Positions 1 through 33,933 of a stretch of 64,000 bases of DNA are shown here, piece by piece. The notes below the pieces were generated by a model. It saw only the letters and a list, made by a program, of their open reading frames with translations, did not search any database and was not told the DNA's origin. The stretch covers positions 1 through 64,000 of the forward strand of contig JAOUFI010000003.1 of NCBI GenBank assembly GCA_029858305.1. The letters run 5' to 3'. The stretch's first letter is position 1. Each line of letters begins with the position of its first letter. The stretch comes from Candidatus Thorarchaeota archaeon (GTDB lineage: Archaea > Asgardarchaeota > Thorarchaeia > Thorarchaeales > Thorarchaeaceae). The position numbers and the translations under genes were made by a program.

Positions 1-378
1 GAAGAATCCTAGCTCTGCATTGAACTGACCCCACCAAAATTGGATACTGTGGAGACGAGACATTTCCATCATGATGGTTCTCATGATTTTAGCACGCTCT
101 GGTACCTCGAGTTCAGCTATTTTCTCAACTGCAGCGACATAGGGATATTCAGCTAAAAACGCCTCGAGCATGCACATCCGTTCAAGTACAAGTGCTCCCT
201 GCCTGAAGTTCTTGTATTCTAGAACCTTCTCAGCAGAACGATGGAAGTACCCAGCATTCGGATCACATTCAACTACATAGTCACCAACCAGCGTCAGTTT
301 TGTTGCCCATCCATGTGCGCTGACATGCTGTGGTCCGAACCAGATTTCCATTGCTTCATCAAGTATGTCAGGACTCAC
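1..378 (-). CDS. nuoD: Complex I/MBS-like catalytic subunit D (NuoD/MbxL family), N-terminal part; runs off window start
   Basis: Not in the ORF track. Manual translation from GTG at 378, overlapping the nuoC stop: MSPDILDEAMEIWFGPQHVSAHGW...NAGYFHRSAEKVLEY...LERMCMLEAF...EVPERAKIMRTIMMEMSRLHS. The GPQH, G-x-x-HR-x-x-EK and VPERA motifs are typical of NuoD. Confidence 0.9.
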   Translation of the reverse strand, partial: MSPDILDEAMEIWFGPQHVSAHGWATKLTLVGDYVVECDPNAGYFHRSAEKVLEYKNFRQGALVLERMCMLEAFLAEYPYVAAVEKIAELEVPERAKIMRTIMMEMSRLHSIQFWWGQFNAELGFF

Positions 379-1864: not shown

Positions 1865-2332
1865 TTAATGACCTCCTGTAGGATATTGTTCTTTTTCTCG
1901 TTCAGCTTTAGCTCTCCTGTATACATCTAGAGTTTCTTTTCCATCAAGGAATGAGCGTGGAATCATTTTCATGACAAAACCAACTCCACCCATTACTATG
2001 AGAATAAACACAACAACCTGCCAAACAACCTCATACTTGGTTGCATTAGCCCACAAAAGGGTAGAAGAGGATAGCAGCCAAAGGAACGCTCCCATTACGT
2101 CAATGACGACAAACAGTACGGTGTAAACGAAATAATTGTACGGATACGATATGCGTGCAGGACCTACTGGTTCCTCACCACATTCGTATGTTGAAGTCTT
2201 CTCGGAGTTTTGAAGCACATGCGGTCTCAACACCCATGAGGCTAGTAGCATTATAATGACAAGAGCCATCGCAAGTAGCGCCCAAATTATAACCGGAATG
2301 AAATCTAGAAACAATCTACTAGTTTGCATCAT
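1865..2332 (-). CDS. nuoA: NADH-quinone oxidoreductase subunit A-like
   Basis: KTSTYECGEEP loop and 3 TM helices. Confidence 0.9.
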   Translation of the reverse strand: MMQTSRLFLDFIPVIIWALLAMALVIIMLLASWVLRPHVLQNSEKTSTYECGEEPVGPARISYPYNYFVYTVLFVVIDVMGAFLWLLSSSTLLWANATKYEVVWQVVVFILIVMGGVGFVMKMIPRSFLDGKETLDVYRRAKAEREKEQYPTGGH

Positions 2333-2684: not shown

Positions 2685-3050
2685 GTGATTTATTTGACCC
2701 GTGGTGAAGAAGGAACATTCTTCTATTATCTGGCGCTCTTACTAGGGATGGCTCTATTAGGAGCCTACTTATGGAATATTTTGACAACGACATTGGCTCC
2801 TCAATACATGTTCTTCCACTGGATCCTTGTCATGAGTTGCATACTACTCATCACAACTGCTTTTGGATTCGTTGCAGCCAACACACGATCAAGTAGGATA
2901 TCTCTAACAATGATATCTGGAGTAGTAGGTGGTATTCATGCCTATCTCATCTTTGTGCTATTTGATTTGATAATGGGAATTATTCTGTTCGCATGGATGG
3001 CTTTAGGACTTCTGGTTGCATTCGCTGCATTTAACTGGATTTACGAATAA
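2685..3050 (+). CDS. Hypothetical 4-TM membrane protein
   Basis: 121 aa hydrophobic ORF with a GTAGGTGA SD-like sequence at its start, between the nuo operon and the NuoB-fusion operon. Confidence 0.65.
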   Translation: MIYLTRGEEGTFFYYLALLLGMALLGAYLWNILTTTLAPQYMFFHWILVMSCILLITTAFGFVAANTRSSRISLTMISGVVGGIHAYLIFVLFDLIMGIILFAWMALGLLVAFAAFNWIYE

Positions 3051-3060
3051 GTCATTACGT

Positions 3061-3603
3061 CTATTCGTTCGAAGACTCAGATGGAGTATCAGCGGATTCA
3101 CTGGACTCCTCAGATTTTACCTCGGCTTCAGGCGCAGCTTCCACAATTGGCTCAGGCTCGGGCTCAGGCTCAGGACCATAGTGTAGCTTACTAGTATCCA
3201 AGATACCGGGTGAGTAGCTCTCTTCACTAGTATGCATTATTGCAAAGCCTGCAGCAGTAAGGATTGATCCTCCAAGACCCCATGCAGATAGATAGAGTGT
3301 GGTTCCAGCTGCTGGAAGAGCTGTCACAAACTGGTCAATGAAGACGACGAAGAAAAAGCCAGCCAGAACAGATAGGGACATCATTAGGTTTTTTCCTTTT
3401 CCTTTCTCGGGTCTGAAGTACCCAATCAATAGGAAGACCATAAGAATGGAAACGCCACCCAGAAGAGTGAAGGCACTTCCAATTACAATTGCTGAAGCTG
3501 GCATCATGAACCCGAGATATACAAAGTTGAAGATGAATGATGTCAGAATAATGAGACCGAGCCAAAGCAGACAATATGGATCACTATCTTGCCGGATTGC
3601 CAT
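3061..3603 (-). CDS. Hypothetical 4-TM membrane protein with Pro/Glu-rich acidic tail
   Basis: Start overlaps the stop of the 3603..5543 gene; four hydrophobic segments; PEPEPEPEP tail. Confidence 0.7.
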   Translation of the reverse strand: MAIRQDSDPYCLLWLGLIILTSFIFNFVYLGFMMPASAIVIGSAFTLLGGVSILMVFLLIGYFRPEKGKGKNLMMSLSVLAGFFFVVFIDQFVTALPAAGTTLYLSAWGLGGSILTAAGFAIMHTSEESYSPGILDTSKLHYGPEPEPEPEPIVEAAPEAEVKSEESSESADTPSESSNE

Positions 3604-5543
3604 TACTGCATCATCCCCATCGCATCTTGATTCTCATATCTTTGTTGCCAGTGAGTCGTCCCAGCTCGTATCTTGTTCTGCAAAATCAGGTGTGCTCGGA
3701 TAAAGTCCGCGGGTTTGGGAGGACATCCGGGGAGATAGACATCGACTGGTACAATTTTGTCAGGAGGTGTTGCCAAGCTGTATCCTTCCCAGAAGAGCCC
3801 CCCGGAGGCAACACATTGACCGAAGGCAATGACATACTTGGGCTCTGGCATCTGTTCATAGATTCTCCTGAGTCGTGGTGCCATCTTCTTTGTGAGAGAG
3901 CCTGAGATCCATAGGACATCAGTCTGTCTTGGGCCAAACAGAGGTAGCATTCCGAACCTCTCAAAGTCCCATCGAGGGGCGATTCCTGCGGCACCATCCA
4001 CCATGCAGCATCCTATTCCATACTGCATTGGCCAAGGACTATGTGCCCTTCCCCATCTAAGCACCCATTTCAGCGGGGGTACATTCTGCAGCCATTTCAA
4101 GAGGATTGGCGCAATTCGGCCCCAACCATTCCTGAATAGGTCGAAGAAGACCCACATGAAGTACTTGCCGATTCTTAATATGAAAGGAAGCCAGTAAGCA
4201 AATATCTTTCCAGGATTCGAAATCTCCTTCTTATCCCATTCTAGCTTCGCAGCTCGAATTCGAGATAAACGCTGCTTTCCAAAGTACTGATTTGCGTAGT
4301 TTGCAAACCAGATTCCTGTTGAGTGCACATGGCCCCCGTGACGTTGTGCAATTTTGAATATGACAAAGCTCTGTGACCAGGAGAGCATGAAGAAGTGCCG
4401 TCGCTCATCCTCCAGAAAGTATCCCATCATCGTCACGCCAGTCTTCGAGTTAACATAGCCATCAATTCCAGCTCTTGCAGAGGCTTGTTCAAATTGAAAG
4501 TCGTCAAGGATTGCGGCAAGGTTCTCTAGAGGTGCAAATGCCTGACCGACAACTAGTGTTGGACCTTTCTTTTTGATCTTCATGGGATAGTATCGCTCAT
4601 GCCATTCATGATCTGCAACTTCATCATCGTAAACGCGTCCACGATACATCTCAGTGACTTCGCGTACGACTCTCAGTCCCTCTTCAATCTCTTCCTCATT
4701 ACCTTCATATGCAACCATCAATGAACAATGGTGAGCAGGAATCGGGAATGGCTTCTTGCCCTCCCAGATAGCCTTCTTGAGGTCTGTGTATTTTGATTCT
4801 TCGAATTTTATCGTGTAGGGAATTGGTCCATCTTCAAGGATCTTCTCAATCGCAAGGACCATCTGATAATTCTCTTCAAAGCTGGAAACTATGACTTTCA
4901 TCGGCGTTAGAGTTTTGATCTTAATAGTAGCCTTAGTGATTATACCCAAAATTCCCTCAGTATCGCAAAAGAGGTCGAGATCTTTCGTCTTGACTATTTT
5001 TCCAGTTGGCAAAACAACTTCTAATTTAACGACGTTCTTATTGATGTTCCCGTATTTCAAAGAACCAATGCCATCGCCACCTTGGGCAATCCAACCACCC
5101 ACAGTTGCCGATACACCAGATGAGGGATAACATCGTACATCAAGACCTTGCCTATTCAACTCGAATTGAAGATTAGCCCATGATATCCCGGGCTCAACTG
5201 TGACAGTCAAATTCTCACTATCAACTTCGAGTATCTTATTCATACTGCGCAAATCAACGATGATTCCACCCTTGCGCGGAATGGCACCACCATAACCAGA
5301 TGTCCCAGCTGCTCGGGGAACAAGAGGAATCTTGTACTTGCGCGCAATTTCGTAGAGTGTCTGTATCTCCTCAGGAGTCAGAGGCTGTGCTATGGCATCA
5401 GCCTTCGTGTTCATGAGCCAACCAACCTGCTTTGGGAGAGAACCAACATCTTGTCCAAACAAAATCAGTTCATGCTTCGCAGTAATCAGGCGGTCTCCAA
5501 AAACCTTCTCGAGTTCATTTTGTGCTATTTGCTTAAGGACCAT
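3603..5543 (-). CDS. Fusion: FAD-linked oxidase (GlcD/Dld-type) + NuoB Fe-S subunit
   Basis: N-terminal PRAAGTSGYGG, PSSGVSATVGGWIA and EGILGIITKA (FAD_binding_4 type). C-terminal GCCMVD, FERFG...PRQTD, SGSLTKKMAP, GQCVASGG and VDVYLPGCPP (NuoB). Confidence 0.92.
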   Translation of the reverse strand: MVLKQIAQNELEKVFGDRLITAKHELILFGQDVGSLPKQVGWLMNTKADAIAQPLTPEEIQTLYEIARKYKIPLVPRAAGTSGYGGAIPRKGGIIVDLRSMNKILEVDSENLTVTVEPGISWANLQFELNRQGLDVRCYPSSGVSATVGGWIAQGGDGIGSLKYGNINKNVVKLEVVLPTGKIVKTKDLDLFCDTEGILGIITKATIKIKTLTPMKVIVSSFEENYQMVLAIEKILEDGPIPYTIKFEESKYTDLKKAIWEGKKPFPIPAHHCSLMVAYEGNEEEIEEGLRVVREVTEMYRGRVYDDEVADHEWHERYYPMKIKKKGPTLVVGQAFAPLENLAAILDDFQFEQASARAGIDGYVNSKTGVTMMGYFLEDERRHFFMLSWSQSFVIFKIAQRHGGHVHSTGIWFANYANQYFGKQRLSRIRAAKLEWDKKEISNPGKIFAYWLPFILRIGKYFMWVFFDLFRNGWGRIAPILLKWLQNVPPLKWVLRWGRAHSPWPMQYGIGCCMVDGAAGIAPRWDFERFGMLPLFGPRQTDVLWISGSLTKKMAPRLRRIYEQMPEPKYVIAFGQCVASGGLFWEGYSLATPPDKIVPVDVYLPGCPPKPADFIRAHLILQNKIRAGTTHWQQRYENQDAMGMMQ

Positions 5544-6119: not shown

Positions 6120-9100
6120 ATGAAGACCTCTAATAAACTAACAATTACCATTGTTCTTTCTGTTTTCATCATTTTAATTGCTGGAGCCTACTCAGCGGCA
6201 GGCCAACCGAGTCGAACCAGTGAATGTGCACCATGTCATACCCTCGACCTGGTTCATATGACGATTTCATCGAACGCAACCGGAACAGTCGATGCCAAAG
6301 TGGGAAACCAATTCTCGTTAATCATTAATGCGGCATCACTTGATACAAATCCACAAACAGGAAGTATGGCTGTTAAAGTCTATAGTGGATGGGCTGATAA
6401 CAGTCAGTTCTCATTCACAGACCCGTTGCTAGTAATCGATAATGGAGCTGGAGATTCAAACTCGAATAGCGTTCAGATAACTACCACGTTCACATTTACG
6501 CCCCTGGCAGTTGGTACATGGACACTTAGAATCTGGACAGCCGCGTCCCAAGGTGATTCAGGAAGAATATCTCAAAAGCTTGATGTAACAGTATCGGTCA
6601 CACTCTCAGATTCTACTCCACCAACAATCGACAGTCCAATAGACATGATAATCGATGAAGGAGATAATACAAAGAACATTACCTGGAGCCCGTCTGATGC
6701 AAATCCAAGCAGCTATCAAGTTTTTGATGATTCTGTGTCATGGCAGAGTGGGCCCTGGGATGGATCGACTATAACTGTACAGCTTGGTTCACTCGGATTA
6801 GGGACCCACAACATCACTCTTGCTGTGTGGGATGCAGCTGGAAACTCGGCATCAGATCAAGTAGATGTGACAGTTCTCGATGGAACGTCACCTAGCATTA
6901 ACAGTCCAGCAAATGTGACTTACAGCGAGGGTTCCTCCGGATACTCAATAACATGGGATCCAACTGATACCCATCCATCAAGTTACGTAATCTATCGAGA
7001 TGGAGTGTCTGTCAAATCAGGGACTTGGAATGCTAGTATCGAAACAATTTCTGTTTCAGTTGATAGCCTCGCAGTTGGCACGTACAACTACACAATTGTT
7101 GTATCAGACGTAGGAACGAACACCATTGCTGACACAGTGTATGTCATAGTATATGATGGGACATTCCCCACAATCGATAATCCTGCAGATGTAACCTATG
7201 ATGAAGGTGATACAGGATACAGCATCACTTGGAACCCCGCCGACTTGAATCCGGTTAGTTATATCATTTACAAAGACGCAGTACCAGTGAAATCAGGTTC
7301 CTGGAACTCGAGTGCAGAATCCATCAGCATCATAGTTGATGGCCTTGCTGTTGGAAACTACAGTTATGTATTGGAGGTGACTGATATCGGATCTCTTACT
7401 GCGTCGGACCTAGTTTTGGTCATTGTTTCTGATGGGACTCTACCGACAATTAATAGTCCAATCGATATAACATTAAACGAAGGAGTAATAGGATACTCTA
7501 TTACTTGGAACCCGACAGATCTGAATCCACAAAACTACACAATCTACAGAGATGGAGTTCCTGTAAAATCAGGCCTTTGGAACTCTAGTGGTGAGTCAAT
7601 CTCAATTTCAGTTGATGGTCTCGCAATGGGTTCATATACATACCTGATTATTGTTGAGGATGTTGGACATAATCCAGCAACAGATTCAGTTCTTGTCACT
7701 GTAGTTGACGCAACAGATCCTACAATTGATACTCCAATTGACCAAAATGTAGTTGAGGGATCAAGTGGTAATCAAATCACCTGGAGTCCTTATGACCTTC
7801 ACCCATCATCTTATCAAATCTATCGTGAACATGTACTTGTCAAATCTGGAACATGGAATAGCAGTTCAGAAACAATCACATTCTCGGTTGATGGACTCAC
7901 ATTGGGAGTCTACAATGTTACAATAGTTGTATTTGACACAACATCAAGAAAAGCTATTGATACTGTTTTTATCACGGTCTATGATGGAACACCACCAATT
8001 GTTGATCATCCAGCTGACATTGACTATCCAGATGGTGACATAGGATATTCAATCACCTGGTCCCCTACAGACCTGCATCCAGTAAGCTATCAGATTTTGC
8101 GAGAGGGCGTGCAGGTGAAATCGGGTATGTGGAACTCTTCGAGTGAAACAATATTCATATCTGTTGACTGGCTTTCTATTGGATCTTACAACTACACGAT
8201 TGTTCTCGTTGACATCGGTGGCAACATAGTACTTGATGAAGTCATTGTTACGGTGTATAACGCAGACTTACCAACTATTAATCATCCCACCAACCAGACC
8301 ATTTCTGAAGGAGCTGCTGGTCTTTTAGTGATTTGGAAGCCATTAGACCTCAATCCCTCTTCATATGCAATATACAAAGACGGAGTTCTCGTCAAGTCTG
8401 GAGCGTGGAACTCAAGTGCTGAAACAATCAGCATTTCACTCGATGGATTATCTCTGGGCGAGTATAACTTTACTGCCTTGGTTACTGACCTAGACAGCAA
8501 TACAGCGAGTGATACAGTGTGGGTCACTGTCGTTGATGGTACACCTCCTGTTCTTAATCATCCAAACGACATCACGTACGATGAAGGAAGTCCTGGAGGA
8601 ACCCTAACTTGGATTCCAACAGACTTGCATCCTGTGAGTTATACGATCTACTTCGAAGGGTCTCCAGTGAAATCCGGTCTCTGGAACTCTAGTGGTGAAT
8701 CTATCTCGATATCAGTCGATGGACACCTAGTTGGAGGTTATAATTACACAATAAGAGTCGTGGATGTTGATGGAAACATTGACACTGATACAGTGTTCGT
8801 CTATGTGATGGATGGCACACTTCCAACAATCGATACTCCAAGTGATATTAATTATAATGAGGGTGAAGCAGGAGGAACAATCACTTGGGATCCTGCAGAC
8901 TCATATCCAGCGAGCTATGAAATCTTTAGAAATGATGTTCTTGTGAAATCTGGCTTATGGAACCTAACATCAGAAACTATCTCAATATCTGTGACTGGAC
9001 TATCTGTTGGATCTTACAATTTCACAATATTAGTATACGACGTGGGAAGTAATTCTGTTCTAGACACGGTATGGGTCACAGTATCCGATGCAACACTTCC

Positions 9101-10364
9101 AACGATTGATACACCAGTCGATAGACAAATCGACGAAGGTCAGACTGGAGAAATAATTACATGGGATCCATCTGATTTGAATCCGATAAGTTACGAAATC
9201 TACAGAAATCAAGTCATTTTCAGAAACGGTTTATGGAATTCAACTTCGGAAATGATCTCAGTTTCACTTGATGGACTTGGTCTAGGTGTTCACAACTTCA
9301 CATTGGTTGTATTCGACATCGGCTTGAACTCTGCGAATGATACTGTGCTGGTAACTGTCATTGATGGTACATCACCAACTATTGATAGTCCATCCGATGT
9401 CTTCTATGCTGAAGGAGTGATAGGTTATTCTATAACATGGAATCCATCAGACCTTCACCCAGTAAGTTATGAAATACTCAGAGAAGGGGTCCAACTAAAG
9501 ACGGGTCCATGGAACTCATCATCTGAATCCATCACTGTCAATGTGGATAGCCTGACCCTTGGATCATACAACTTCACAATCTATGTCACTGATGTTGGTG
9601 GAAACATTGCAAGCGACACCGTATTTGTTATCGTTTCTGACGGTAATGCACCGACAATTGATAGCCCTCCAGATGTGACATACGATGAAGGAGATACTGG
9701 CTTCTCTATTCAATGGAATCCAGCTGATGCACATCCATCAGGGTATGAGATATACAGAGAGGATGTCCTGATATTCTCTGGACTATGGAACTCATCTTCG
9801 GAAACAATCACAGTATCAGTTGATAGCCATCAAGTAGGAACATACAACTATACGATACGTGTCTTTGATATTGGCGCTAGCAGTGTATCTGATACGGTGA
9901 TGGTCATTGTTCAAGACGGGACATTACCCATGATCGATAGTCCAGCTGATATTGTCTACAATCAAGGCGATACTGGAAACTCAATTACTTGGAATCCCTC
10001 AGATTTGCATCCGATGAGCTATGAGATATTTCGAGATGGAGTGTCGATTAAATCAGGATTGTGGAATTCAAGCAGTGAATCAATTGTTATTATAGTGGAC
10101 GGGCTCACTCTTGGCGTTCATAATTATACGCTTGTTGTTATCGATATTGGTACTAATTCAGCACTTGATCAAGTGAATGTACTAGTCCAAGCCTCAACAT
10201 CTCCAACGACACCCACAACAAGTACACAGACAACAACTCCCGAGAATCCCAATGTACCGCAAATACCCTTGGAGCCAATTTTGATGATACTTGTCACCTG
10301 GATTGGCGTTGGTGTACTTGCGTTTGTCATTGCCGATTTTCTAGTTAGACGATATAGAGGATAG
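6120..10364 (+). CDS. Large surface protein: signal peptide, mono-heme c (CxxCH) beta-domain, 13 Ig-like repeats, C-terminal TM anchor
   Basis: ECAPCH near the N-terminus; repeats of ~92 aa; Thr/Pro-rich linker; TM helix followed by RRYRG. Confidence 0.9.
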   Translation: MKTSNKLTITIVLSVFIILIAGAYSAAGQPSRTSECAPCHTLDLVHMTISSNATGTVDAKVGNQFSLIINAASLDTNPQTGSMAVKVYSGWADNSQFSFTDPLLVIDNGAGDSNSNSVQITTTFTFTPLAVGTWTLRIWTAASQGDSGRISQKLDVTVSVTLSDSTPPTIDSPIDMIIDEGDNTKNITWSPSDANPSSYQVFDDSVSWQSGPWDGSTITVQLGSLGLGTHNITLAVWDAAGNSASDQVDVTVLDGTSPSINSPANVTYSEGSSGYSITWDPTDTHPSSYVIYRDGVSVKSGTWNASIETISVSVDSLAVGTYNYTIVVSDVGTNTIADTVYVIVYDGTFPTIDNPADVTYDEGDTGYSITWNPADLNPVSYIIYKDAVPVKSGSWNSSAESISIIVDGLAVGNYSYVLEVTDIGSLTASDLVLVIVSDGTLPTINSPIDITLNEGVIGYSITWNPTDLNPQNYTIYRDGVPVKSGLWNSSGESISISVDGLAMGSYTYLIIVEDVGHNPATDSVLVTVVDATDPTIDTPIDQNVVEGSSGNQITWSPYDLHPSSYQIYREHVLVKSGTWNSSSETITFSVDGLTLGVYNVTIVVFDTTSRKAIDTVFITVYDGTPPIVDHPADIDYPDGDIGYSITWSPTDLHPVSYQILREGVQVKSGMWNSSSETIFISVDWLSIGSYNYTIVLVDIGGNIVLDEVIVTVYNADLPTINHPTNQTISEGAAGLLVIWKPLDLNPSSYAIYKDGVLVKSGAWNSSAETISISLDGLSLGEYNFTALVTDLDSNTASDTVWVTVVDGTPPVLNHPNDITYDEGSPGGTLTWIPTDLHPVSYTIYFEGSPVKSGLWNSSGESISISVDGHLVGGYNYTIRVVDVDGNIDTDTVFVYVMDGTLPTIDTPSDINYNEGEAGGTITWDPADSYPASYEIFRNDVLVKSGLWNLTSETISISVTGLSVGSYNFTILVYDVGSNSVLDTVWVTVSDATLPTIDTPVDRQIDEGQTGEIITWDPSDLNPISYEIYRNQVIFRNGLWNSTSEMISVSLDGLGLGVHNFTLVVFDIGLNSANDTVLVTVIDGTSPTIDSPSDVFYAEGVIGYSITWNPSDLHPVSYEILREGVQLKTGPWNSSSESITVNVDSLTLGSYNFTIYVTDVGGNIASDTVFVIVSDGNAPTIDSPPDVTYDEGDTGFSIQWNPADAHPSGYEIYREDVLIFSGLWNSSSETITVSVDSHQVGTYNYTIRVFDIGASSVSDTVMVIVQDGTLPMIDSPADIVYNQGDTGNSITWNPSDLHPMSYEIFRDGVSIKSGLWNSSSESIVIIVDGLTLGVHNYTLVVIDIGTNSALDQVNVLVQASTSPTTPTTSTQTTTPENPNVPQIPLEPILMILVTWIGVGVLAFVIADFLVRRYRG
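6609..10190 (+). repeat. 13 diverged tandem intragenic repeats (~276 bp / ~92 aa, Ig-like beta-sandwich)
   Basis: Consensus DGTxPTIDxPxDxxYxEGxxGxSITWxPxDLxPxSYxIYRDGVxVKSGxWNSSxExISISVDGLxxGxYNYTIxVxDxGxNxAxDTVxVxV. Unit starts at 6879 and 7155 are 276 nt apart. Confidence 0.9.
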
Positions 10365-10457: not shown

Positions 10458-11684
10458 ATGGATTTTCCAGCTCTGAAAGAACATGAACTCCAAGATTACG
10501 CCTTTACTTGTGCCCAATGCAGTTTTTGTCAGGTAGGTCATGGTGCGTGTCCAACCTACAAGGTAAAACGACGAGATACATATTCAGGAAAGGGCAAGAT
10601 GCTATTGACCCGTGCTTTGATTCAAGGTCGGCTAAAACCATCTGAAGGACTCGAAGGTCTTAGAGATGGAATCTTTGGTTGCACACTCTGTGGAGGCTGC
10701 GAGGAAGTCTGCCAAGTAGATATCCCCTTTGTTAAAATCTACCAAGTAATGCGCTCTGAATTCAAAAGGCGCAACATGTGGCCAGAACAGCTCCAGATGG
10801 CTAAAGACACTGTCTTGAAGAGCTTCAATATTCAAGGTCAAGCACAAATGGATAGAATCGAGGGCTGGTCGTACTGGACTCCAAATGAGGATGAATTACT
10901 GGATAGACAGGGAACCAAAGCAAAGACTGCATTCTTCTTCGGATGTGCATCATCATTCCGAGGTGTTTCCATTCAGGCTACAATTGCTACAACACTAATC
11001 TTCGATAAAATTCAAGAAGAGTATACCGTGCTGGGAGAAGAAGAGTACTGCTGCGGTGCTCCTCTCATAATGACAGGAGACTTCGAAGGGGCGAGAGTTC
11101 TTGCTGAACACAATATTCAGAAGTACAGAGAGCTTGGTGTTGAGAGGATAGTGACCAACTGCCCAGGTTGCTATAAAATGTGGGCTCATGAATATCATGA
11201 GTTCTTGGGCATAGATCATGGTTTTGAAATAGTCTATGGTTATCAGTATCTTGCTGATCTCCTTGATAAAGGCAAATTGACAGGCTTCAATACGCCACTC
11301 GATGTCACAGTGACCTACCATGATGGTTGCGATGCTGGCCGAAATGCCGGATTCTATGAAGAACCTAGAAAGGTACTTGAGTATCTTCCAGGAGTTACTT
11401 TTGAAGAACTACCCCATAATAAGGCCAATTGCTATTGTTGTGGCTCTGGTGGAGTCCTAAGAGCAATCGATGCAGACTTTGCAAATCAAATCAATAGACT
11501 CAAAGTAGAAGATATCGAGGCAACAAATGCAAGTATTGTGTCGTCTGGATGTCCCTCCTGTGTTGACTTTATGCATGATCAACTTCCTCAAGCTGGTTCT
11601 AATAAGACCGTGAAGGACCTAGTTGTTCTTACTGCACAGGCGCTCGGTCTCTCTTGGGATGGACTTGACGAGATTTATGGTTGA
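10458..11684 (+). CDS. Fe-S oxidoreductase, GlcF/GlpC/HdrD family (2x[4Fe-4S] + 2 CCG domains)
   Basis: CAQCSFC...CP, CTLCGGCEEVC, YCCGAP, NCPGC, YHDGC, YCCGSGG, GCPSC. Confidence 0.9.
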   Translation: MDFPALKEHELQDYAFTCAQCSFCQVGHGACPTYKVKRRDTYSGKGKMLLTRALIQGRLKPSEGLEGLRDGIFGCTLCGGCEEVCQVDIPFVKIYQVMRSEFKRRNMWPEQLQMAKDTVLKSFNIQGQAQMDRIEGWSYWTPNEDELLDRQGTKAKTAFFFGCASSFRGVSIQATIATTLIFDKIQEEYTVLGEEEYCCGAPLIMTGDFEGARVLAEHNIQKYRELGVERIVTNCPGCYKMWAHEYHEFLGIDHGFEIVYGYQYLADLLDKGKLTGFNTPLDVTVTYHDGCDAGRNAGFYEEPRKVLEYLPGVTFEELPHNKANCYCCGSGGVLRAIDADFANQINRLKVEDIEATNASIVSSGCPSCVDFMHDQLPQAGSNKTVKDLVVLTAQALGLSWDGLDEIYG

Positions 11685-11739: not shown

Positions 11740-13002
11740 ATGAACAGGAAGTCGACGGTTCAAAGTAGGTATCAAAGGAAATGGATCTATGAGGAGATTG
11801 TAGACCGAATACCGCCATTTAGATGGATCCCACGGACATATGATGTCATCGCACAATTGCTTCTTGTAGAAACTGTCGGTGTCTTTGCATTCATTTACTT
11901 TCAGATGCCGTATGAAGCCGCAGTATTTGGTTCGCTAGCAATAATCTATACTGTAGTTTGGTCTTCTGGATGTCTCTATATCGTTCCATGGCTAAGAAGA
12001 CTTCGTGATCCAACGAATGAGATTGAATTTGAAGTCCTTAGAGATTACAAGAGTCGTATTCTTTTGGATCGAAGGCTAGAACTCATTGGGGGCATAATTT
12101 GCTTTGGCGCAGTCATGTCGTATCTTTGGATTGATACTGATTATCTCAGATATTTTCTAGGAAACGGATTCGGAAATCCACTATTGATTATATTGATTAT
12201 AGTGTTAGCTTGGGATATTAGTTACCGTCTTGGACTATCATTAGTGACCACGTTCTTCGCAGCGATAAGATCCATATCATTAAGCCAAGCGGCTAGAAAA
12301 CGAAGGGGTCTAGCTTATACTGCTTATTCAGAGGTTAGAACACTCAAATACCTCGATTTGATCAATCTGTATTGGGGAATCAGCGCAGTTCTACTCTTGC
12401 CCTTGACTCTACGATCCTATTTCTTATTGCTGGGGCTTGCAGGATTTCTTGCAGGCATAATTGGACTTTCTACCTTGAGTCTGCTAGCAATGGAAACCGT
12501 CCCTTGGTTTCCTCCCGATGTTGAGAGTATTTTGCATAACGAAGGATTCGCGTATGTAAGTGTGTGTTCAAAGAAACAACCGCATGTAACACCTGTAATC
12601 TTCGTATATGATGGAAAATACCTGTATTTTGCCATATCAGTTGCCTCGGCTAAATACAGAATAATAAAGAAGAATCCCAAGATTGCAGTCTTGGTTGATA
12701 TGCGCGATAGTAAGTTTCCGATGAAGAATAGGGCTGTGCTTCTGAGAGGAAAAGGGATGATTCTTGGAGACCTATCGATTATGGGATTTTTCAAGCTTTT
12801 CTTGCACGGCCTTTGGCTAATTCGAGTGAGAAACATGTTTGCTAAGAAATATCCTATGTACATGAAATTTTATGAAGATCAGGCTCAGGAACTTCCACCT
12901 GCTTGGCGAAACAAACCGTTCCTCTCCAGGGTAATCGTACGTCTAGAGCCTGAAAAGATAACATACTGGCGTGAGGCCAGACCAACAACCCTACGAGCGT
13001 GA
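11740..13002 (+). CDS. Multi-TM membrane protein fused to a flavin/F420-binding split-barrel (PNPOx-like) domain
   Basis: ~6 TM helices in the N-terminal part; C-terminal QPHVTPVIFVYDG...SAKYRIIKKNPKIAVLVD...AVLLRGK. Confidence 0.75.
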   Translation: MNRKSTVQSRYQRKWIYEEIVDRIPPFRWIPRTYDVIAQLLLVETVGVFAFIYFQMPYEAAVFGSLAIIYTVVWSSGCLYIVPWLRRLRDPTNEIEFEVLRDYKSRILLDRRLELIGGIICFGAVMSYLWIDTDYLRYFLGNGFGNPLLIILIIVLAWDISYRLGLSLVTTFFAAIRSISLSQAARKRRGLAYTAYSEVRTLKYLDLINLYWGISAVLLLPLTLRSYFLLLGLAGFLAGIIGLSTLSLLAMETVPWFPPDVESILHNEGFAYVSVCSKKQPHVTPVIFVYDGKYLYFAISVASAKYRIIKKNPKIAVLVDMRDSKFPMKNRAVLLRGKGMILGDLSIMGFFKLFLHGLWLIRVRNMFAKKYPMYMKFYEDQAQELPPAWRNKPFLSRVIVRLEPEKITYWREARPTTLRA

Positions 13003-13006
13003 AACC

Positions 13007-13492
13007 ATGACACTAAGATTGCCTCATTATGATAGCACCAAGAAGACAACTAAGATTCCAGATGATGCCTTGAACATCCTTCGAGATGGATTCTTTGCGT
13101 ATTTAGGTACGGCTGACCTAGTCTGCGAACCTCATGTAACGGCTATGTTCTATATTTGGGATGATGATTCTAAGACAATCCATCTTATTACTTCAAAAGA
13201 AAGTAAAAAGGTGCTAAATATCAGACGAAATACAAGAGTGAGTGTTACTATCGATCAAAGAGACCCTAAATCACCAGCTCGTAACTCAGGTGTAATGGTA
13301 AAGGGAAGAGCGCTCCTTGTAGAGATGGAGCTTATTGATGATGAACTGACAGTGAAATATCTTGAGAAGTATGTTGAATTTCTAGGAACTGGATATCCTT
13401 TGGGGCTCAGGATTGCGATTCGAGTAGTTCCACAGACAATCTCCTATTGGAAGGGAACTAATTTCTACCGATGGAAGAATCGGAGCTCCTAA
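13007..13492 (+). CDS. Pyridoxamine 5'-phosphate oxidase-like split-barrel protein
   Basis: FAYLGT...PHVTAMFY...SKKVLNIRRNTRVSVTID...GVMVKGRA; paralogous to the C-terminal domain of the upstream gene. ATG at 13007 preferred as start. Confidence 0.8.
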   Translation: MTLRLPHYDSTKKTTKIPDDALNILRDGFFAYLGTADLVCEPHVTAMFYIWDDDSKTIHLITSKESKKVLNIRRNTRVSVTIDQRDPKSPARNSGVMVKGRALLVEMELIDDELTVKYLEKYVEFLGTGYPLGLRIAIRVVPQTISYWKGTNFYRWKNRSS

Positions 13493-13496
13493 ATTC

Positions 13497-14600
13497 TCAA
13501 TTGCTTGAAGATGCAGCACTTGCTGCTTTTCTTGCCTGGCGCTCTGTTTGATAATAAAAGGCAAGAGATATTGCAAGACACAAAACACTCAAAATAACAA
13601 CGAACCATGGAGGCGTTGATAGACCAATTAACAGGTACGACAGAGAGAGGAAGAGACCTGTAAACAAGTGATTTGCTACAGTTGAGGCGTAGGCGGGAAT
13701 CAATGGTTGCGAGTATTCATAGTATTTCAATGCATACTTGCATCCAAGCGCTGCAGCAGGCACAGTTGCTAGTCCTAGAAATGTATACCAGTCTGTAAGA
13801 TTGAGAATGATTGGAATTAATATTGACAAATATAGTGAAGCCATCAGAACAACATAGCCCTTAGCCGCTCGTTCGCGTCCAAGCCGCACGACCACTGTTA
13901 GCTTTCCAACTGCTTTATCGGCTTCATAGTCAGGAAACTCATTGATGTATAGAACCGCTGTAATTAGTATGGCAATTGGAATTGAAGGAAAAACAGCCTC
14001 CCAAGCAAGAACTTGTGTTTGAACGAAATAAGCACCAAGAGTCATGAGAACACCAAAGTTGAGACCAATAAAGATCTCTCCAATCCCTCTGTTCACCAAT
14101 CTCAGGGGTGGAGCAGTATAGAAGAAGCCAGAACCTACACCAATGATTCCTAGAATCAGAACTTCAATGCCCCTTGTGTAAGCAAGATATAGACCAATCC
14201 CACCTCCAATTGAGAAGAACACGATTGATTCTGCAAAGACCTCACGGGGAGACATCCAACCTCTCTGTATCATCCTGCTCCCCCCAGTGAATGGACGAAC
14301 ATACTCCACGTTGATATCGTCCGTCCCACTCTTGTGGTCGAAGTAGTCATTGGCCACATTAGATCCAATGTGCACGCAAATTCCAGCTATGAGTGTCAGC
14401 AGGAAAACATCCAGAAGGAACACTCCTGTCGAAGCCCATCCAACACAGGTTCCTAGAATTACTGGAACAATCGCTCCGGTTAGAAAAGGAGCACGCATCT
14501 CAGCCATCCAGATTCGTATTCTCGAAGGTTTTTCTACGCTCACGACTATCACAACATACAGGATTGAAACCATTGCACATTGCACAAAAGACTTACTCAA
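13497..14600 (-). CDS. menA: 1,4-dihydroxy-2-naphthoate polyprenyltransferase (UbiA family)
   Basis: RAPFL, NVANDYFDHKSGTD, FTGGSRMIQ, YTAPP...GIGE, INEFPDYEADKAVGKLT. Confidence 0.88.
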   Translation of the reverse strand: MSKSFVQCAMVSILYVVIVVSVEKPSRIRIWMAEMRAPFLTGAIVPVILGTCVGWASTGVFLLDVFLLTLIAGICVHIGSNVANDYFDHKSGTDDINVEYVRPFTGGSRMIQRGWMSPREVFAESIVFFSIGGGIGLYLAYTRGIEVLILGIIGVGSGFFYTAPPLRLVNRGIGEIFIGLNFGVLMTLGAYFVQTQVLAWEAVFPSIPIAILITAVLYINEFPDYEADKAVGKLTVVVRLGRERAAKGYVVLMASLYLSILIPIILNLTDWYTFLGLATVPAAALGCKYALKYYEYSQPLIPAYASTVANHLFTGLFLSLSYLLIGLSTPPWFVVILSVLCLAISLAFYYQTERQARKAASAASSSN

Positions 14601-14682: not shown

Positions 14683-15723
14683 ATGACAGAACGACCAACT
14701 GTTAATCTTGATGCCGACAACCAAATAGAAGAAAGCACAAGTCCAATATATTCATCTGACCTGTTAGAGAATGAAAAAATACACACTAGAATAAATCTCA
14801 TAAATGAGGAGATTAAACGTTGTCTTCTGGATGAGGATGGTGAACCAGCACTCCTCTATGAAACAGCACGACATTTAATTCTTGCAGGTGGCAAGAGACT
14901 GAGGTCATTATTATTGGTACTCTCCTGTGAAGCTGTAGGCGGAACAGTGATTGATGCTCTACCATTTGCTGTTGCTACTGAGTTCGTGCAAACTGCTAGT
15001 CTTATCCATGATGATGTCGTTGATGAGGATAATATGCGTCGGGGAGTAGAAACCACTCATAAGAAATTTGGTGGGAAGATGGCAATTATCGCTGGAGACT
15101 TATTGGTCGCATTAGCGATCAAATTGATAGGAGAGAGATCAACTCCTCAGCTTCTTACATACGTTGCGGCTGGAGGCATTAGAATGTGTGAAGGTGAGGC
15201 CGCTGATCTTCTTATGAGTCAAAAGAAGGACCATTCCTACACGACAAAAGCTGCACTTGAAATCATAAGAATGAAAACAGTCTCGTTTATGGTTTCTGCT
15301 GCAAAGGTAGGAGCTATGTTAGGTCACGCGAATGAAAAACAAATGGAAGCGTTGGTCAGGTATGCAGAGATGTTGGGATATTCATTTCAAATCCGTGATG
15401 ATATTCTAGACATAGTTGCGACGCAGAATGGAACTGGTAAGACAGTATTATCCGATTTAAAAGGAAGCAGAAGCAATTTCGTTCTAGCTCACGCGATTGA
15501 AAACTGCTCACCTGATCAGAGAAAAGATTTCGCGAAGAAACTAAGCGATGGTGATGTTGATTTTATTCTTGAACGAATAAAGGAAGGCAGGTCTGTTGAA
15601 TATTCAACTGAGATCGCAAGGGAATACTTAGAATCAGCAAAACGTGCAATTCAAGGACTTAATTTTGCCAATGAAGAATTATTGACGCTTCTTGCAGACT
15701 TTGCAATGAACCGCCTCTACTAA
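14683..15723 (+). CDS. Polyprenyl diphosphate synthase (GGPP synthase/IspA family)
   Basis: GGKRLR; FARM SLIHDDVVDEDNMRRG; SARM FQIRDDILD. Confidence 0.92.
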   Translation: MTERPTVNLDADNQIEESTSPIYSSDLLENEKIHTRINLINEEIKRCLLDEDGEPALLYETARHLILAGGKRLRSLLLVLSCEAVGGTVIDALPFAVATEFVQTASLIHDDVVDEDNMRRGVETTHKKFGGKMAIIAGDLLVALAIKLIGERSTPQLLTYVAAGGIRMCEGEAADLLMSQKKDHSYTTKAALEIIRMKTVSFMVSAAKVGAMLGHANEKQMEALVRYAEMLGYSFQIRDDILDIVATQNGTGKTVLSDLKGSRSNFVLAHAIENCSPDQRKDFAKKLSDGDVDFILERIKEGRSVEYSTEIAREYLESAKRAIQGLNFANEELLTLLADFAMNRLY

Positions 15724-15734
15724 TTTTGTAGGAA

Positions 15735-16925
15735 CTAAAGGAACCAATTCAAAGCTTTAACAAGCGTTTTTGATGCGAGAGATATTGGAAGAGGAAGTCG
15801 ACATCGAATAAGCGGTTCGAGAAATCTAACTCCAGCAAGATTCATACAGATATCAGTTAATGTATCCGAGGGCATGACTGTATCAGCGACTCTAAGAACT
15901 TGAAGTGCAGTTTCCAGCTCAAGACCATATTCAGATCTCCACTTTCGTTCATAAAGGGACAAAGAAGCATTTTTTGTCAAATGGTTTACAACGTTCTCTC
16001 CGGCTATCTGACCACCGCATAATGCAGTCGGAATTCCACCTCCATTCGAAGCCATCACATGACCAGCTGCATCTCCGACTAGTATCACATTGTTTGACCA
16101 AGTTGTTTTAAGTGGGCCACCAACAGGGATAATCGCGCCTACTCTTTGCAGTATCTTTGCGTTTTTCGTTTTTTGAGCCAAAGTATTGAATGCAAACCGT
16201 TCAATATACCTCTTCAGTGGAGTCATATCGCCTCCGATGCTTCGTCGCATCCCGAAACCAATATTGGCTATGCCCTCACCCTTAGGTATGACCCATGCAT
16301 ATCCTCCTGGTGCAATCGAACTGCCAAAATACATCTCAACAATAGTTGGATCAATATCAACATCGCTCATGACATATTGTAGTGCTGGGCTTAGATCTGA
16401 TTCAGGCTGGATGAATCTAGGACCAAGGGAACGAGCCACAACTGACTTTGACCCATCAGCTCCAATAACTAACCTTGAGTTTATTGTTTGTACTGAATTC
16501 TTTGTTTTGACTTTCAATTCGTTCGTTATGGAGCGATTAATTACCGTAGAATCTAACTGAATCTCAGCACCAACATTTTCAGCTGAATCTGCAAGATATT
16601 GATCATATCGAGATCTATCAACAATGTTCGCTTCGAAAGGAAACTCGAAAGATTTTCCGTTTGGAGAAATCAGTCTTATGACTTGGGTCTGGTTTGTTAT
16701 AAACTCCGCTGGTACATTAACAGCTTTGGACATCCTCGTCGAGTTAGGAAAAAGTCTTCGTGCCTCTGATGGTGTAGGAATGAGCTCTCCACATTGCACT
16801 GGCGCACCAACTTTGCGGCGACGATCAAGAACGAGAGTATGCAGATCATTTCTTGCTGTCACTTCTGCTGCAGATGTCCCAGCTGGTCCAGCGCCAATCA
16901 CTGCGACATCATATATGATCTTCAT
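15735..16925 (-). CDS. Geranylgeranyl reductase family FAD oxidoreductase
   Basis: GAGPAG, VQCGE, DRSRYDQ, IGADG, APGGYAWVIPKG, GDAAG...NGGGI. Confidence 0.88.
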   Translation of the reverse strand: MKIIYDVAVIGAGPAGTSAAEVTARNDLHTLVLDRRRKVGAPVQCGELIPTPSEARRLFPNSTRMSKAVNVPAEFITNQTQVIRLISPNGKSFEFPFEANIVDRSRYDQYLADSAENVGAEIQLDSTVINRSITNELKVKTKNSVQTINSRLVIGADGSKSVVARSLGPRFIQPESDLSPALQYVMSDVDIDPTIVEMYFGSSIAPGGYAWVIPKGEGIANIGFGMRRSIGGDMTPLKRYIERFAFNTLAQKTKNAKILQRVGAIIPVGGPLKTTWSNNVILVGDAAGHVMASNGGGIPTALCGGQIAGENVVNHLTKNASLSLYERKWRSEYGLELETALQVLRVADTVMPSDTLTDICMNLAGVRFLEPLIRCRLPLPISLASKTLVKALNWFL

Positions 16926-23207: not shown

Positions 23208-24404
23208 ATGAAACGTAAAGTCAGAATTGGACTTGTTCTAGTTGCGGCAATAGTCATTATTATGCTTGCAGCAGGCAATGCCTTTGCTCATAGCGAATAC
23301 GAAGTAGACTGTTCAACATGCCACGATGTTTCATCAGGCATGTCAATAACCACAGTATCGACAATAAACACAGGCCCAGGAGAAACTTTTCAGGTTGACG
23401 TTGTTGCGACTGGGTTGGCTCAAGATGTCTTTGTGCTACGCATACCGACTGATGTGGCCGATAATGACCAATTCACAATAAATGTGCCAGCGAACACAGA
23501 GAATCCAGGACTTGTTGAAGACAATGATGCACTAGACTTGGATTCGAACAACAATGGAATTCATGCAATCTACAATATTACAGCTCCCGCATTTTCTGGA
23601 ACATACACACTAATCATCTGGGCAGCTCAACATACTGACAATGGAATCAGTAGATCAATAACTGTAAATGTGATTGAGGGAGGTCCAGGTCCGTCAATTG
23701 GAGCACCATCAACAACGCCACAAGTTCCACTTGCGAACGAAGAATTCACTGTCACGGTTACTATTTCATCCTCAGATACTATAACCTATGTCAGACTGCA
23801 GTATAGTATTGATGGTGGGATTAATTGGCTGAATGTTACAATGTCTGAGTCAGGTGGTTTATATTCTGGTACAATACCCGGATTACCGAATAATCAGGAA
23901 GTGCACTGGCGAATCGTGGCAGCTGATTCTTCTGGAGAGAGAGTTAGTGCTACCTTAACATTCACTGTCGGCGTAATTCCGATAGAGCCTATAGAGATTC
24001 CCCAATTTCATTATGGATGGTTGCTAGGGGCGCCAGCTTTGGTTATTGCCTACATTGGCACGGCTCTCGAGTATTATGATGAAGAGCGATTCACGAGAAT
24101 CCATGGTATGATGCTAGGCATCGCTTATGTATTAACATCCATTAACGTTGTAAGTCTAGTAATGGAACCTGCAGGCGTTTGGGCCGCGATGAATCCTGTC
24201 TATCTGTTCGATCTGAGTAACATGCTCATATTCATGCATGCTTGGCATATCTGGCTTGGCATAATCAGCATGGTTCTGGGCACTCTTGCACTCATAACAC
24301 ATCTTGGAGGGTGGAAGACATGCAATCTTGGATTACCAGCAGTTGTGCTATGGACTATTCTGGGAATAATGGGCTTCTATCTAGGAGAGGTATTTGTTCC
24401 GTGA
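23208..24404 (+). CDS. Mono-heme c beta-domain + Ig-like domain + His-rich multi-TM (cytochrome b561-like) membrane domain
   Basis: Signal peptide, DCSTCH; C-terminal TM helices carrying RIHGMML, FMHAWHIWLG and LITHLGG. Confidence 0.75.
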   Translation: MKRKVRIGLVLVAAIVIIMLAAGNAFAHSEYEVDCSTCHDVSSGMSITTVSTINTGPGETFQVDVVATGLAQDVFVLRIPTDVADNDQFTINVPANTENPGLVEDNDALDLDSNNNGIHAIYNITAPAFSGTYTLIIWAAQHTDNGISRSITVNVIEGGPGPSIGAPSTTPQVPLANEEFTVTVTISSSDTITYVRLQYSIDGGINWLNVTMSESGGLYSGTIPGLPNNQEVHWRIVAADSSGERVSATLTFTVGVIPIEPIEIPQFHYGWLLGAPALVIAYIGTALEYYDEERFTRIHGMMLGIAYVLTSINVVSLVMEPAGVWAAMNPVYLFDLSNMLIFMHAWHIWLGIISMVLGTLALITHLGGWKTCNLGLPAVVLWTILGIMGFYLGEVFVP

Positions 24405-24414
24405 GGTGATTGAA

Positions 24415-25875: not shown

Positions 25876-25884
25876 ATCGTTACA

Positions 25885-33922: not shown

Positions 33923-33933
33923 GTGGTGAAGAG

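What the first reader, a model, noticed from the sequence alone, without database searches (positions are those of the whole stretch)
3603..5543. NuoB fused to an FAD-linked oxidase: a possible new electron-input module for a complex-I-like enzyme
Seen: one 646-aa ORF joins a complete FAD_binding_4/FAD-oxidase_C-type protein, via a hydrophobic/amphipathic linker, to an intact NuoB (tandem CC, GxC and GCPP ligands of cluster N2, ~3660-4060). nuoB is missing from its usual place after nuoA. Established: complex-I-like enzymes take electrons via NuoEFG, FpoF/FqoF or ferredoxin, not a GlcD/Dld-type flavoprotein. Inference: substrate oxidation by the flavin domain, perhaps through the nearby CCG subunit at 10458, is wired directly to the pump.
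Basis: partly seen in the sequence, partly recalled or inferred. Interest (0 to 1): 0.85.

Follow-up and report, generated by a model that had tools for sequence, protein, structure and literature searches.

The report
Flavoenzyme fused to complex-I NuoB
In this Thor-type Asgard archaeon the only NuoB iron-sulfur subunit of a complex-I-like ion pump is made as one protein with a membrane-hugging flavin enzyme that has its own HdrD-like iron-sulfur partner, a real and conserved design whose substrate and electron route are still unknown.

Summary
ORF 3603-5543 (-) encodes 646 aa carrying PF01565, PF02913 and PF01058. All four cluster-N2 cysteines are kept in 45 of 45 full-length relatives.

It is not an assembly artefact. 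The same fused frame stands in 52 species genomes. Independent DNA contigs and one RNA-library contig cross the junction without a gap.

It is the only complex-I-type NuoB in the genome. It sits beside nuoA-J-K-C-D, and no NuoF or FpoF was found.

The flavin part belongs to a membrane-tethered GlcD/LDHD-fold branch whose partner is an HdrD/GlpC-like CCG protein. That partner is encoded divergently in 32 of 34 loci and is fused to the flavin part in other phyla. One sister genus has the flavoprotein unfused and lacks this Nuo type.

A direct FAD-to-N2 wire driving the pump is not shown. The tether is an amphipathic membrane-surface linker, NuoI is intact, and NuoD lacks the quinone tyrosine.

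No paper I could search describes the fusion, but a "Fpo-associated HdrD/GlcD" unit has been hypothesised. This scan noted the same fusion before on other genomes.

The parts
3603..5543 (-). FAD-linked oxidoreductase::NuoB fusion gene (646 aa)
   Evidence: same 646-aa frame in 52 species genomes
4986..5399 (-). FAD_binding_4 domain (res 49-186), with the PRxxGTSGYGG motif at res 76
   Evidence: E 7e-40; motif in 44 of 45 relatives
4203..4898 (-). FAD-oxidase_C / cap domain (res 216-447), with GGHxHSTG at res 403 where GlcD/LDHD enzymes have GEHG
   Evidence: whole flavin part matches mouse LDHD with TM 0.84
4065..4202 (-). Conserved amphipathic membrane-surface linker (res 448-493); it ends in PPLKW, where the unfused g14 protein ends
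   Evidence: 82% mean pairwise identity against 73.5% for the flavin part
3654..4064 (-). NuoB core (res 494-630) with N2 ligands C512, C513, C577, C607
3061..3603 (-). 180-aa polytopic membrane protein with an acidic PE-rich tail; its start overlaps the fusion's stop; no known family
   Evidence: a homolog lies directly downstream in 43 of 44 loci
2685..3050 (+). 121-aa membrane ORF on the opposite strand between the fusion unit and nuoA; conserved in position
1865..2332 (-). nuoA
   Evidence: PF00507
1215..1862 (-). nuoJ
   Evidence: PF00499
904..1215 (-). nuoK
   Evidence: PF00420
375..950 (-). nuoC
   Evidence: PF00329
1..378 (-). nuoD, first 126 codons only (contig end); has GPQHVSAHG and ERMCMLE
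   Evidence: the full gene followed by nuoH, I, M, L, N is seen in relatives
10458..11684 (+). HdrD/GlpC-like Fe-S + 2xCCG protein, inferred partner of the flavin domain
11740..13492 (+). DUF7530 membrane domain fused to a PNPOx-like domain, followed by a PNPOx-like protein
   Evidence: present in part of the loci
13497..14600 (-). MenA-like UbiA prenyltransferase
   Evidence: TIGR00751 118.4 bits against a cut-off of 102.15
14683..16925 (.). polyprenyl synthetase (14683-15723 +) and geranylgeranyl-reductase-like flavoprotein (15735-16925 -)
   Evidence: syntenic in both fused and unfused genera

Best explanation
The gene makes the N2-carrying NuoB subunit of a head-less, 11-subunit complex-I-like ion pump (no NuoEFG, no FpoF). 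Its N-terminus is the flavoprotein subunit of a two-subunit, membrane-surface GlcD/HdrD-type flavo-iron-sulfur oxidoreductase. The second subunit (2 cubane-type motifs and 2 CCG motifs) is encoded divergently.

Shown: the fusion, its conservation, the sole-NuoB status, the partner relationship by synteny and by fused forms elsewhere, and that the free flavoprotein with its amphipathic tail came first.

Inferred: the fusion docks this oxidoreductase at the foot of the peripheral arm, where the NuoB N-terminal helix meets the membrane beside the carrier pocket of NuoB/D/H. There it acts as a side port at the N2/carrier end of the chain. It does not replace the distal NuoEFG head, and ferredoxin still enters through NuoI.

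Most likely route (inferred): a still unknown substrate is oxidised at FAD. Electrons pass through the clusters of the CCG protein to the same prenylated membrane carrier, or carrier pocket, that the pump uses. The pump and the dehydrogenase would then be coupled locally.
For: Fusion and NuoB identity: (N2 cysteines in 45 of 45 relatives).

Not an artefact: 52 species loci; about 46 clusters at 90% identity, all ~646 aa; junction bridged by two DNA runs and one RNA-library contig.

Sole NuoB. Operon A-J-K-C-D-H-I-M-L-N in relatives. No PF01512 or PF04432.

Strict co-occurrence: NuoD of this type (at least 69% identity) occurs only in genera g1-g12, the same genera that hold the fusion.

Partner: a CCG ortholog lies in 32 of 34 loci, directly divergent in 23. 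The order is CCG->FAD in tandem in g14. The CCG protein aligns over residues 14-399 with residues 505-880 of FAD+FeS+CCG proteins (29% identity, E 2e-56 and 3e-49). All 18 cysteines of the cluster motifs are invariant in 26 orthologs.

Membrane-surface tether. The tail pre-dates the fusion. In the tree, fused plus g14 unfused proteins form a 100/100 clade.

Link to a membrane carrier: the MenA-like gene passes its cut-off and is syntenic in both fused and unfused genera. A close relative, P0124, is NrfD+FAD. Window paralogs have true TM anchors.

NuoI is intact.
Against: No distance or contact between FAD, the CCG clusters and N2 could be computed (tool unavailable).

NuoD has Met or Leu where complex I has the quinone-binding Tyr. 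In 36 of 36 relatives the motif is ER[LMI]C[ML][LM]E, and its best solved relative is the sulfane reductase MBS (6u8y_L, E 1e-54). A classical quinone site is therefore doubtful.

No known menaquinone head-group pathway was found. PF02621 is absent from this genome. MenB, MenD and MqnC score over cut-off in 0 of 28 genomes of the genus. The carrier is therefore unidentified.

The substrate is unknown. The GlcD equivalog cut-off is not reached (139 against 568 bits), and the LDHD His405 and Glu-His positions are not kept in the profile alignment.

In 2 of 34 loci (L019, L025) the CCG gene is not nearby.

An opposite-strand ORF separates the fusion unit from nuoA, so the two are not one transcript by design.
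Confidence: 0.45

Rival explanations
1. One reading: the FAD/CCG module is the electron-input head of the pump. Substrate electrons go FAD -> CCG-protein clusters -> N2 -> acceptor and drive ion translocation.
For: There is no NuoEFG or FpoF. The flavoprotein is covalently attached to the N2 subunit. The CCG protein offers up to four clusters as a wire. The altered NuoD pocket leaves room for non-classical routes.
Against: NuoI is retained, so the normal entry exists. The tether starts at the membrane-surface end of NuoB. The module functions without this Nuo in g14. If the substrate were a 2-hydroxyacid (about -190 mV, recalled) and the acceptor a menaquinone-like carrier, the driving force would be small for a four-site pump (reasoning only). 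No geometry was available.
Confidence: 0.2
2. Output module: reduced ferredoxin enters at NuoI, electrons leave N2 to the CCG protein and FAD, and these reduce a soluble acceptor (a heterodisulfide-like thiol cofactor or a 2-oxoacid). This would be the Thor version of the hypothesised Fpo-like/HdrD(/GlcD) energy-converting unit.
For: Passages read in PMC10667645, PMC6783470 and PMC6421429 describe a proposed 'Fpo-associated HdrD/GlcD' or hdrD-glcD unit in Bathyarchaeia, Methanomethylicia and Korarchaeia. The CCG protein's best curated matches are TfrB, LdhH, GlpC and HdrB-type proteins. NuoD lacks the quinone Tyr. No known menaquinone pathway was found.
Against: No Mcr-derived heterodisulfide is expected here (not tested). 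The MenA-like, polyprenyl and cytochrome-c genes in the island point to a lipid carrier. The literature unit is itself only a genomic hypothesis.
Confidence: 0.2
3. The fusion is only a tether or assembly device (co-localisation, co-translation, stoichiometry), or the flavin domain has lost catalysis and serves as a structural or regulatory cap.
For: The canonical GlcD/LDHD catalytic signature is missing. The substrate is unknown.
Against: The FAD-binding motif is kept in 44 of 45 relatives and the GGHxH motif in 44 of 45. The flavin part shows 73.5% mean pairwise identity across genera. The model has high confidence and an intact fold. The partner CCG protein keeps all its cluster cysteines.
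Confidence: 0.1
4. Assembly or gene-calling artefact joining two genes.
For: None was found. One genome of 87 (G024) has a frame break at residue 435/436.
Against:: independent assemblies, including a closed 3.16-Mb chromosome (L044), and contigs bridging the junction.
Confidence: 0.01

Closest known systems
NuoB / Nqo6 / PSST (NDUFS7) / NdhK, the N2 subunit of complex I and NDH-1
   Same: Residues 491-627 align with NdhK and NDUFS7 at E 1e-43 to 1e-41. The curated NuoB family cut-offs are passed. All four cluster cysteines are kept. The gene sits in a nuo gene set.
   Different: It carries a 490-residue flavoprotein plus an amphipathic linker at its N-terminus. In my searches the only other NuoB fusions were with NuoA, NuoC and NuoCD, plus intein-bearing MbhJ and plant chimeras (NuoBC/BCD passages in PMC11237513 and PMC12361115).
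Head-less 11-subunit complex-I-like enzymes (cyanobacterial NDH-1; Fpo-like complexes without FpoF)
   Same: Subunits A, B, C, D, H, I, J, K, L, M, N are present, with no NuoEFG or FpoF. Ferredoxin entry at NuoI is the usual assumption (established knowledge; also stated in passages of 10.1101/2024.07.04.601786 and PMC9723677).
   Different: The gene order is B..A-J-K-C-D-H-I-M-L-N. NuoB is fused to a flavoenzyme. NuoD lacks the Tyr and has a conserved Cys and the C-terminus SLDPYPGWWDR. There is an extra conserved 180-aa membrane protein.
Hypothesised 'Fpo-associated HdrD/GlcD' unit of Bathyarchaeia, Methanomethylicia, Korarchaeia; Fpo-like + HdrD of Methanomassiliicoccales
   Same: The same three ingredients are present: a complex-I-like pump, an HdrD-like CCG protein and a GlcD-like flavoprotein (passages in PMC10667645, PMC6783470, PMC6421429).
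   Different: There the association is inferred from gene presence or co-location. Here the flavoprotein is covalently joined to the pump's NuoB. No methanogenesis context was seen in this window, and Mcr was not searched.
Two-subunit D-lactate dehydrogenase Dld-II (DVU3027-DVU3028) and single-chain Dld-II / FAD+FeS+CCG proteins
   Same: The domain set PF01565+PF02913 with PF13183+PF02754 is the same, either split or fused (passages of PMC4481167).
   Different: The GEHG-type motif named in that paper is replaced by GGHxHSTG, with a 3-residue deletion in the profile alignment. The GlcD and YdiJ equivalog cut-offs are far from met. The flavoprotein is attached to NuoB.
MBS, membrane-bound sulfane reductase of Pyrococcus furiosus (PDB 6u8y)
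   Same: It is the best solved match of the NuoD of this operon (E 1e-54, full length). Both keep a Cys in the ER.C motif and lack the quinone Tyr.
   Different: The NuoB part is closer to NdhK/NDUFS7 (1e-43) than to MBS subunit J (2e-28). The membrane arm here is NuoA/H/J/K/L/M/N-type.

Membership tests
NuoB (PF01058; TIGR01957/NF005012) | Score above the curated family cut-off | tested here: met
   NF005012 175.9 against 116 bits; TIGR01957 166.4 against 142.7 bits
NuoB (PF01058; TIGR01957/NF005012) | Four cysteines for cluster N2 (CC ... GxC ... GCPP; the motif is recalled) | tested here: met
   C512, C513, C577, C607; 45 of 45 relatives
NuoB (PF01058; TIGR01957/NF005012) | Encoded with the other nuo core genes | tested here: met
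   (NuoA in 38 of 40 loci with more than 3.5 kb downstream)
Canonical 14-subunit complex I | NADH-oxidising NuoEFG module | tested here: not met
   PF01512 gives 0 matches in the 88.9%-complete genome; none in the operon of relatives
Canonical 14-subunit complex I | Quinone head-group Tyr in NuoD (DRxDY; its role is recalled) | tested here: not met
   Met or Leu stands at that column in 36 of 36 relatives
F420H2 dehydrogenase Fpo/Fqo | FpoF/FqoF input subunit (FrhB family) | tested here: not met
   PF04432 gives 0 matches; FpoD model 246 against 600 bits
Head-less 11-subunit complex-I-like enzymes | Core subunits A, B, C, D, H, I, J, K, L, M, N without an N-module | tested here: met
Group 4 [NiFe] hydrogenase | Two CxxC pairs for Ni-Fe in the large subunit (recalled) | tested here: not met
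   Only one Cys (ER.C) remains; the C-terminus is SLDPYPGWWDR in 35 of 36 relatives
GlcD / LDHD / Dld-II D-2-hydroxyacid dehydrogenases | PF01565 + PF02913 and the VAO/PCMH fold | tested here: met
   TM 0.84 to mouse LDHD
GlcD / LDHD / Dld-II D-2-hydroxyacid dehydrogenases | Equivalog score | tested here: not met
   TIGR00387 139.1 against 567.9 bits; YdiJ 77.9 against 1350 bits
GlcD / LDHD / Dld-II D-2-hydroxyacid dehydrogenases | GEHG motif with the essential His (PMC4481167 passage) and LDHD His405 (named in PDB titles) | tested here: inconclusive
   In the profile alignment a His (H407) stands at the EHG His column, but the Glu falls in a 3-residue deletion and the His405 column holds Val. 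Identity is low, so the alignment is uncertain.
GlcD / LDHD / Dld-II D-2-hydroxyacid dehydrogenases | Fe-S/CCG partner subunit or domain | tested here: met
Proposed Fpo-associated HdrD/GlcD unit | Physical association of the three parts | not testable with these tools
   The covalent FAD-NuoB link is shown.

The most novel reading that the evidence does not exclude
The GlcD/HdrD-type module is wired by its CCG-protein clusters directly to N2. This would make a new class of respiratory machine: a complex-I-type ion pump whose electron port is an organic-substrate or thiol flavo-iron-sulfur enzyme rather than NADH, F420H2 or a quinone. It could run forward (substrate-driven pumping, or ferredoxin:acceptor pumping) or in reverse (ion-gradient-driven ferredoxin reduction from a weak donor). 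It would also be the first physical evidence for the long-hypothesised Fpo-HdrD-GlcD unit of uncultured archaea.
Probability: 0.25. Interest if true: 0.9.

Novelty: new variant of a known kind. Interest (0 to 1): 0.72.

Why it matters
How head-less complex-I-like enzymes of anaerobes and archaea take up or deliver electrons is a long-standing open question. Here evolution has welded a candidate partner enzyme to the N2 subunit. That names the partner and makes the question testable by structure prediction, by cryo-EM of enrichment cultures or by heterologous expression. The fusion also gives Rosetta-stone support to the purely genomic "Fpo-HdrD-GlcD" hypothesis used in many metabolic reconstructions of uncultured archaea. 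Finally, it bears on the energy metabolism of Asgard archaea, which matters for models of eukaryote origins. Public annotation calls the protein plain "NuoB", so reconstructions miss the flavin module.

Tried and rejected
- Searching the C-terminal 171 residues of the flavin part alone against PDB sequences gave only chance hits. A profile (A2) was needed instead.
- The search for related loci in metagenome contigs with the closest stand-alone NuoB (P0207, 57% identical) returned only generic NuoB genes at 44-54% identity, not its own contig. The context of the nearest free NuoB therefore stays unknown. The cluster look-up gave only 'NuoB' names.
- The ESM Atlas look-up of residues 1-500 added nothing beyond 'FAD linked oxidase'.
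- Transmembrane linker: rejected.
- Hydrogenase function of the NuoD: rejected.
- YdiJ or GlcD orthology: rejected on cut-offs.
- Rest of the operon in this genome: nuoD (remainder), nuoH and nuoI are not assembled. Two antiporter-like genes start contig C41.
- Literature searches that found nothing on the fusion: plus find-reads of PMC11237513, PMC9723677, PMC12361115 and 10.1101/2024.07.04.601786. Subscription-only papers are not covered.
- RNA-library contigs cover only part of the gene (10 and 5 of 30 bins). No expression level or transcript ends can be drawn from them.
Full report
**Observation.** The window is the first 64 kb of contig C148 of a 3.04-Mb assembly that is 88.9% complete. 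Relatives are labelled Candidatus Thorarchaeota. One ORF on the - strand, 3603-5543, encodes 646 residues without a stop. Pfam finds FAD_binding_4 (49-186, E 7e-40), FAD-oxidase_C (216-447, E 3e-10) and Oxidored_q6/NuoB (524-617, E 1e-22). NCBIfam NuoB family models pass their cut-offs. The four cysteines of the N2 motifs (C512, C513, C577, C607) are present here and in 45 of 45 full-length relatives.

**Gene order around the fusion.** On the same strand, downstream, lie a 180-aa polytopic membrane protein whose start overlaps the stop of the fusion, then nuoA, nuoJ, nuoK, nuoC and the first 126 codons of nuoD, which is cut by the contig end. A conserved 121-aa membrane ORF lies on the other strand between the 180-aa gene and nuoA. 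There is no separate nuoB.

**Artefact?** No.
- The same ~646-aa architecture is found in about 46 clusters at 90% identity. At 50% identity these collapse into a single cluster among 1.84 billion representatives.
- It stands in 52 species-level genomes, including a closed 3.16-Mb chromosome.
- In the GTDB class, 51 of 87 genomes hold a (near-)full single frame and 9 more hold pieces cut by contig ends. One genome (G024) has a frame break at residue 435/436.
- Laid contigs bridge the junction. The possible source run covers 3612-4368 with 0 differences. An independent sediment run covers 3531-4261 with 20 substitutions and no gap. A metatranscriptome-library contig covers 4057-4249 with 1 difference. 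DNA carry-over in RNA libraries cannot be excluded.

**Is it the NuoB of the pump?** The genome has 5 PF01058 hits. Three of the other four are followed by NiFeSe large subunits, and one is preceded by MvhD and cut by a contig end. These are soluble hydrogenase small subunits.
- In relatives the operon continues nuoD-H-I, then an M/N-type antiporter, then nuoL and a further antiporter.
- PF01512 (NuoF) and PF04432 (FpoF/FrhB) give no match in this genome.
- NuoD of this type (at least 69% identity) occurs only in genera g1-g12, the same genera that hold the fusion. The 16 genomes of g13-g17 have only paralogs of 38% identity or less, in other group-4-like clusters.
- The NuoB moiety resembles NdhK/NDUFS7 (E 1e-43) more than MbhJ (1e-28).

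**The flavin part.**
- The AlphaFold model (40-row alignment; mean pLDDT 77.6, about 90 in the flavin part) matches mouse D-lactate dehydrogenase over its whole length (TM 0.84). It also matches LctD and alkyl-DHAP synthase.
- By sequence, only the FAD-binding domain aligns to solved enzymes. A family profile aligns the full length.
- In that alignment, and in a MAFFT alignment with relatives, the GEHG-type motif of lactate-binding enzymes (passage in PMC4481167) is replaced by GG-H-x-H-S-T-G with a three-residue deletion. The column of LDHD His405 holds Val.
- GlcD and YdiJ equivalog cut-offs are far from met.
- The substrate is therefore unknown. The domain belongs to a distinct branch of the family.

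**Partner and origin.**
- The nearest non-Thor relatives (35-41% identity) are free proteins with hydrophobic C-terminal tails, ~900-1030-aa FAD+FeS+CCG fusions, and one NrfD+FAD fusion.
- The CCG protein at 10458-11684 aligns end to end with the Fe-S/CCG half of those fusions. It keeps all cluster cysteines in 26 orthologs.
- It lies upstream of the fusion in 32 of 34 loci that have more than 3 kb of upstream sequence, and is directly divergent in 23. In this window a 1414-aa surface protein gene is inserted between the two.
- In genus g14 the flavoprotein is free (499 aa, 57% identity) and ends in PPLKW, exactly where NuoB begins in the fusion. Its gene follows the CCG gene in tandem, and no nuo genes follow.
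- A maximum-likelihood tree puts fused and g14 proteins in one 100/100 clade. The fused rows group together at 83/99 (38 rows chosen by me, midpoint root used for drawing only).
- The module with its membrane tail is therefore older than the fusion.

**The tether.** Residues 448-493 form two predicted helices. They are followed by the ordinary N-terminal helix of NuoB. The highest 19-residue hydropathy is 1.28 and the hydrophobic moments are 0.56-0.63, which is amphipathic and not transmembrane. The stretch is more conserved (82% mean pairwise identity) than the flavin part (73.5%). The flavin domain therefore stays on the cytoplasmic side, at the membrane surface. That the NuoB N-terminal helix lies at the membrane interface next to the quinone entry is recalled from published complex I structures and was not tested here.

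**Context.**
- The MenA-like prenyltransferase (TIGR00751 118 against 102 bits), a polyprenyl synthetase and a GGR-like reductase are syntenic with the CCG/FAD genes in both fused and unfused genera.
- MqnA/D is absent from this genome. MenB, MenD and MqnC score over cut-off in 0 of 28 genomes of the genus. Any carrier is of unknown head group.
- NuoD keeps GPQHVSAHG but has ER[LMI]C[ML][LM]E where complex I has the Tyr, in 36 of 36 relatives. It ends in SLDPYPGWWDR, and its best solved relative is MBS.

**Mechanism.** I favour (0.45) a side-port model. A GlcD/HdrD-type dehydrogenase is permanently docked at the carrier end of a ferredoxin-type pump and exchanges electrons through a shared lipid carrier or pocket. 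A passive tether gets about 0.1. No tool here could measure cofactor distances.

**Literature.** Searches found no paper describing a flavoprotein-NuoB fusion. Known NuoB fusions are BC and BCD (passages in PMC11237513 and PMC12361115). A 'Fpo-associated HdrD/GlcD' unit has been proposed from genomes (passages in PMC10667645, PMC6783470, PMC6421429). I read passages only, saw no supplements, and subscription journals are not covered.

**Earlier notes of this scan.** Earlier notes on other genomes reached the same reading. One of them is marked 'part of it fell' without saying which part.

Noticed in passing
window 17049-39007: A ~22-kb stretch lies between the GGR-like gene and mutS and is absent at that place in relative L011. 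It holds a CcmF-like gene, a 457-aa protein with 6 CxxCH motifs and TM anchors, three further FAD_binding_4/CCG gene pairs (24394-27009, 28464-31390, 32744-35655; two of these flavoproteins have true C-terminal TM helices), an amine-oxidase-like flavoprotein and ccmA, B, C, E. Together with the Nuo locus it looks like a respiratory island. Paralog pairs lie 10-30 kb from the fusion in many relatives.
   Followed up: partly
window 6120-10364 (+): A 1414-aa secreted or anchored protein with an N-terminal CxxCH, about 13 tandem ~90-aa repeats and a C-terminal TM helix is inserted between the fusion and its CCG partner. It is not at this place in L011 or L044. The smaller ORFs 23208-24404 and 31614-32210 share a similar Cys-x-x-Cys-His-Asp start.
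   Followed up: no
L011:15017-16153 and 35 other loci; window 1-378: The NuoD of this operon has invariant motifs GPQHVSAHG, ER.C..E and the C-terminal SLDPYPGWWDR. It has neither the Ni-Fe cysteines nor the quinone Tyr, and its best solved match is the sulfane reductase MBS (6u8y).
   Followed up: partly
window 13497-14600 (-): The MenA-like prenyltransferase passes the menA cut-off although MenB, MenD, MqnA/D and MqnC were not found in the genus. Either the head group is unknown or a precursor is taken up.
   Followed up: partly
window 3061-3603 (-) and 2685-3050 (+): Two conserved small membrane proteins of no known family stand between the fusion and nuoA, one on each strand. The 180-aa one ends in an acidic (EP)n/Ser-rich tail.
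   Followed up: partly
P0124 (protein): A relative of the flavin domain (41% identity) is fused behind an NrfD/PsrC-type membrane anchor. This is another architecture linking the flavoprotein branch to membrane electron carriers.
   Followed up: partly
window 4293-4296: In the independent run X2 one contig carries a 1-base deletion and a 1-base insertion three bases apart (depth 22.4 of 41.6). This is a frame-restoring strain variant inside the cap domain.
   Followed up: no
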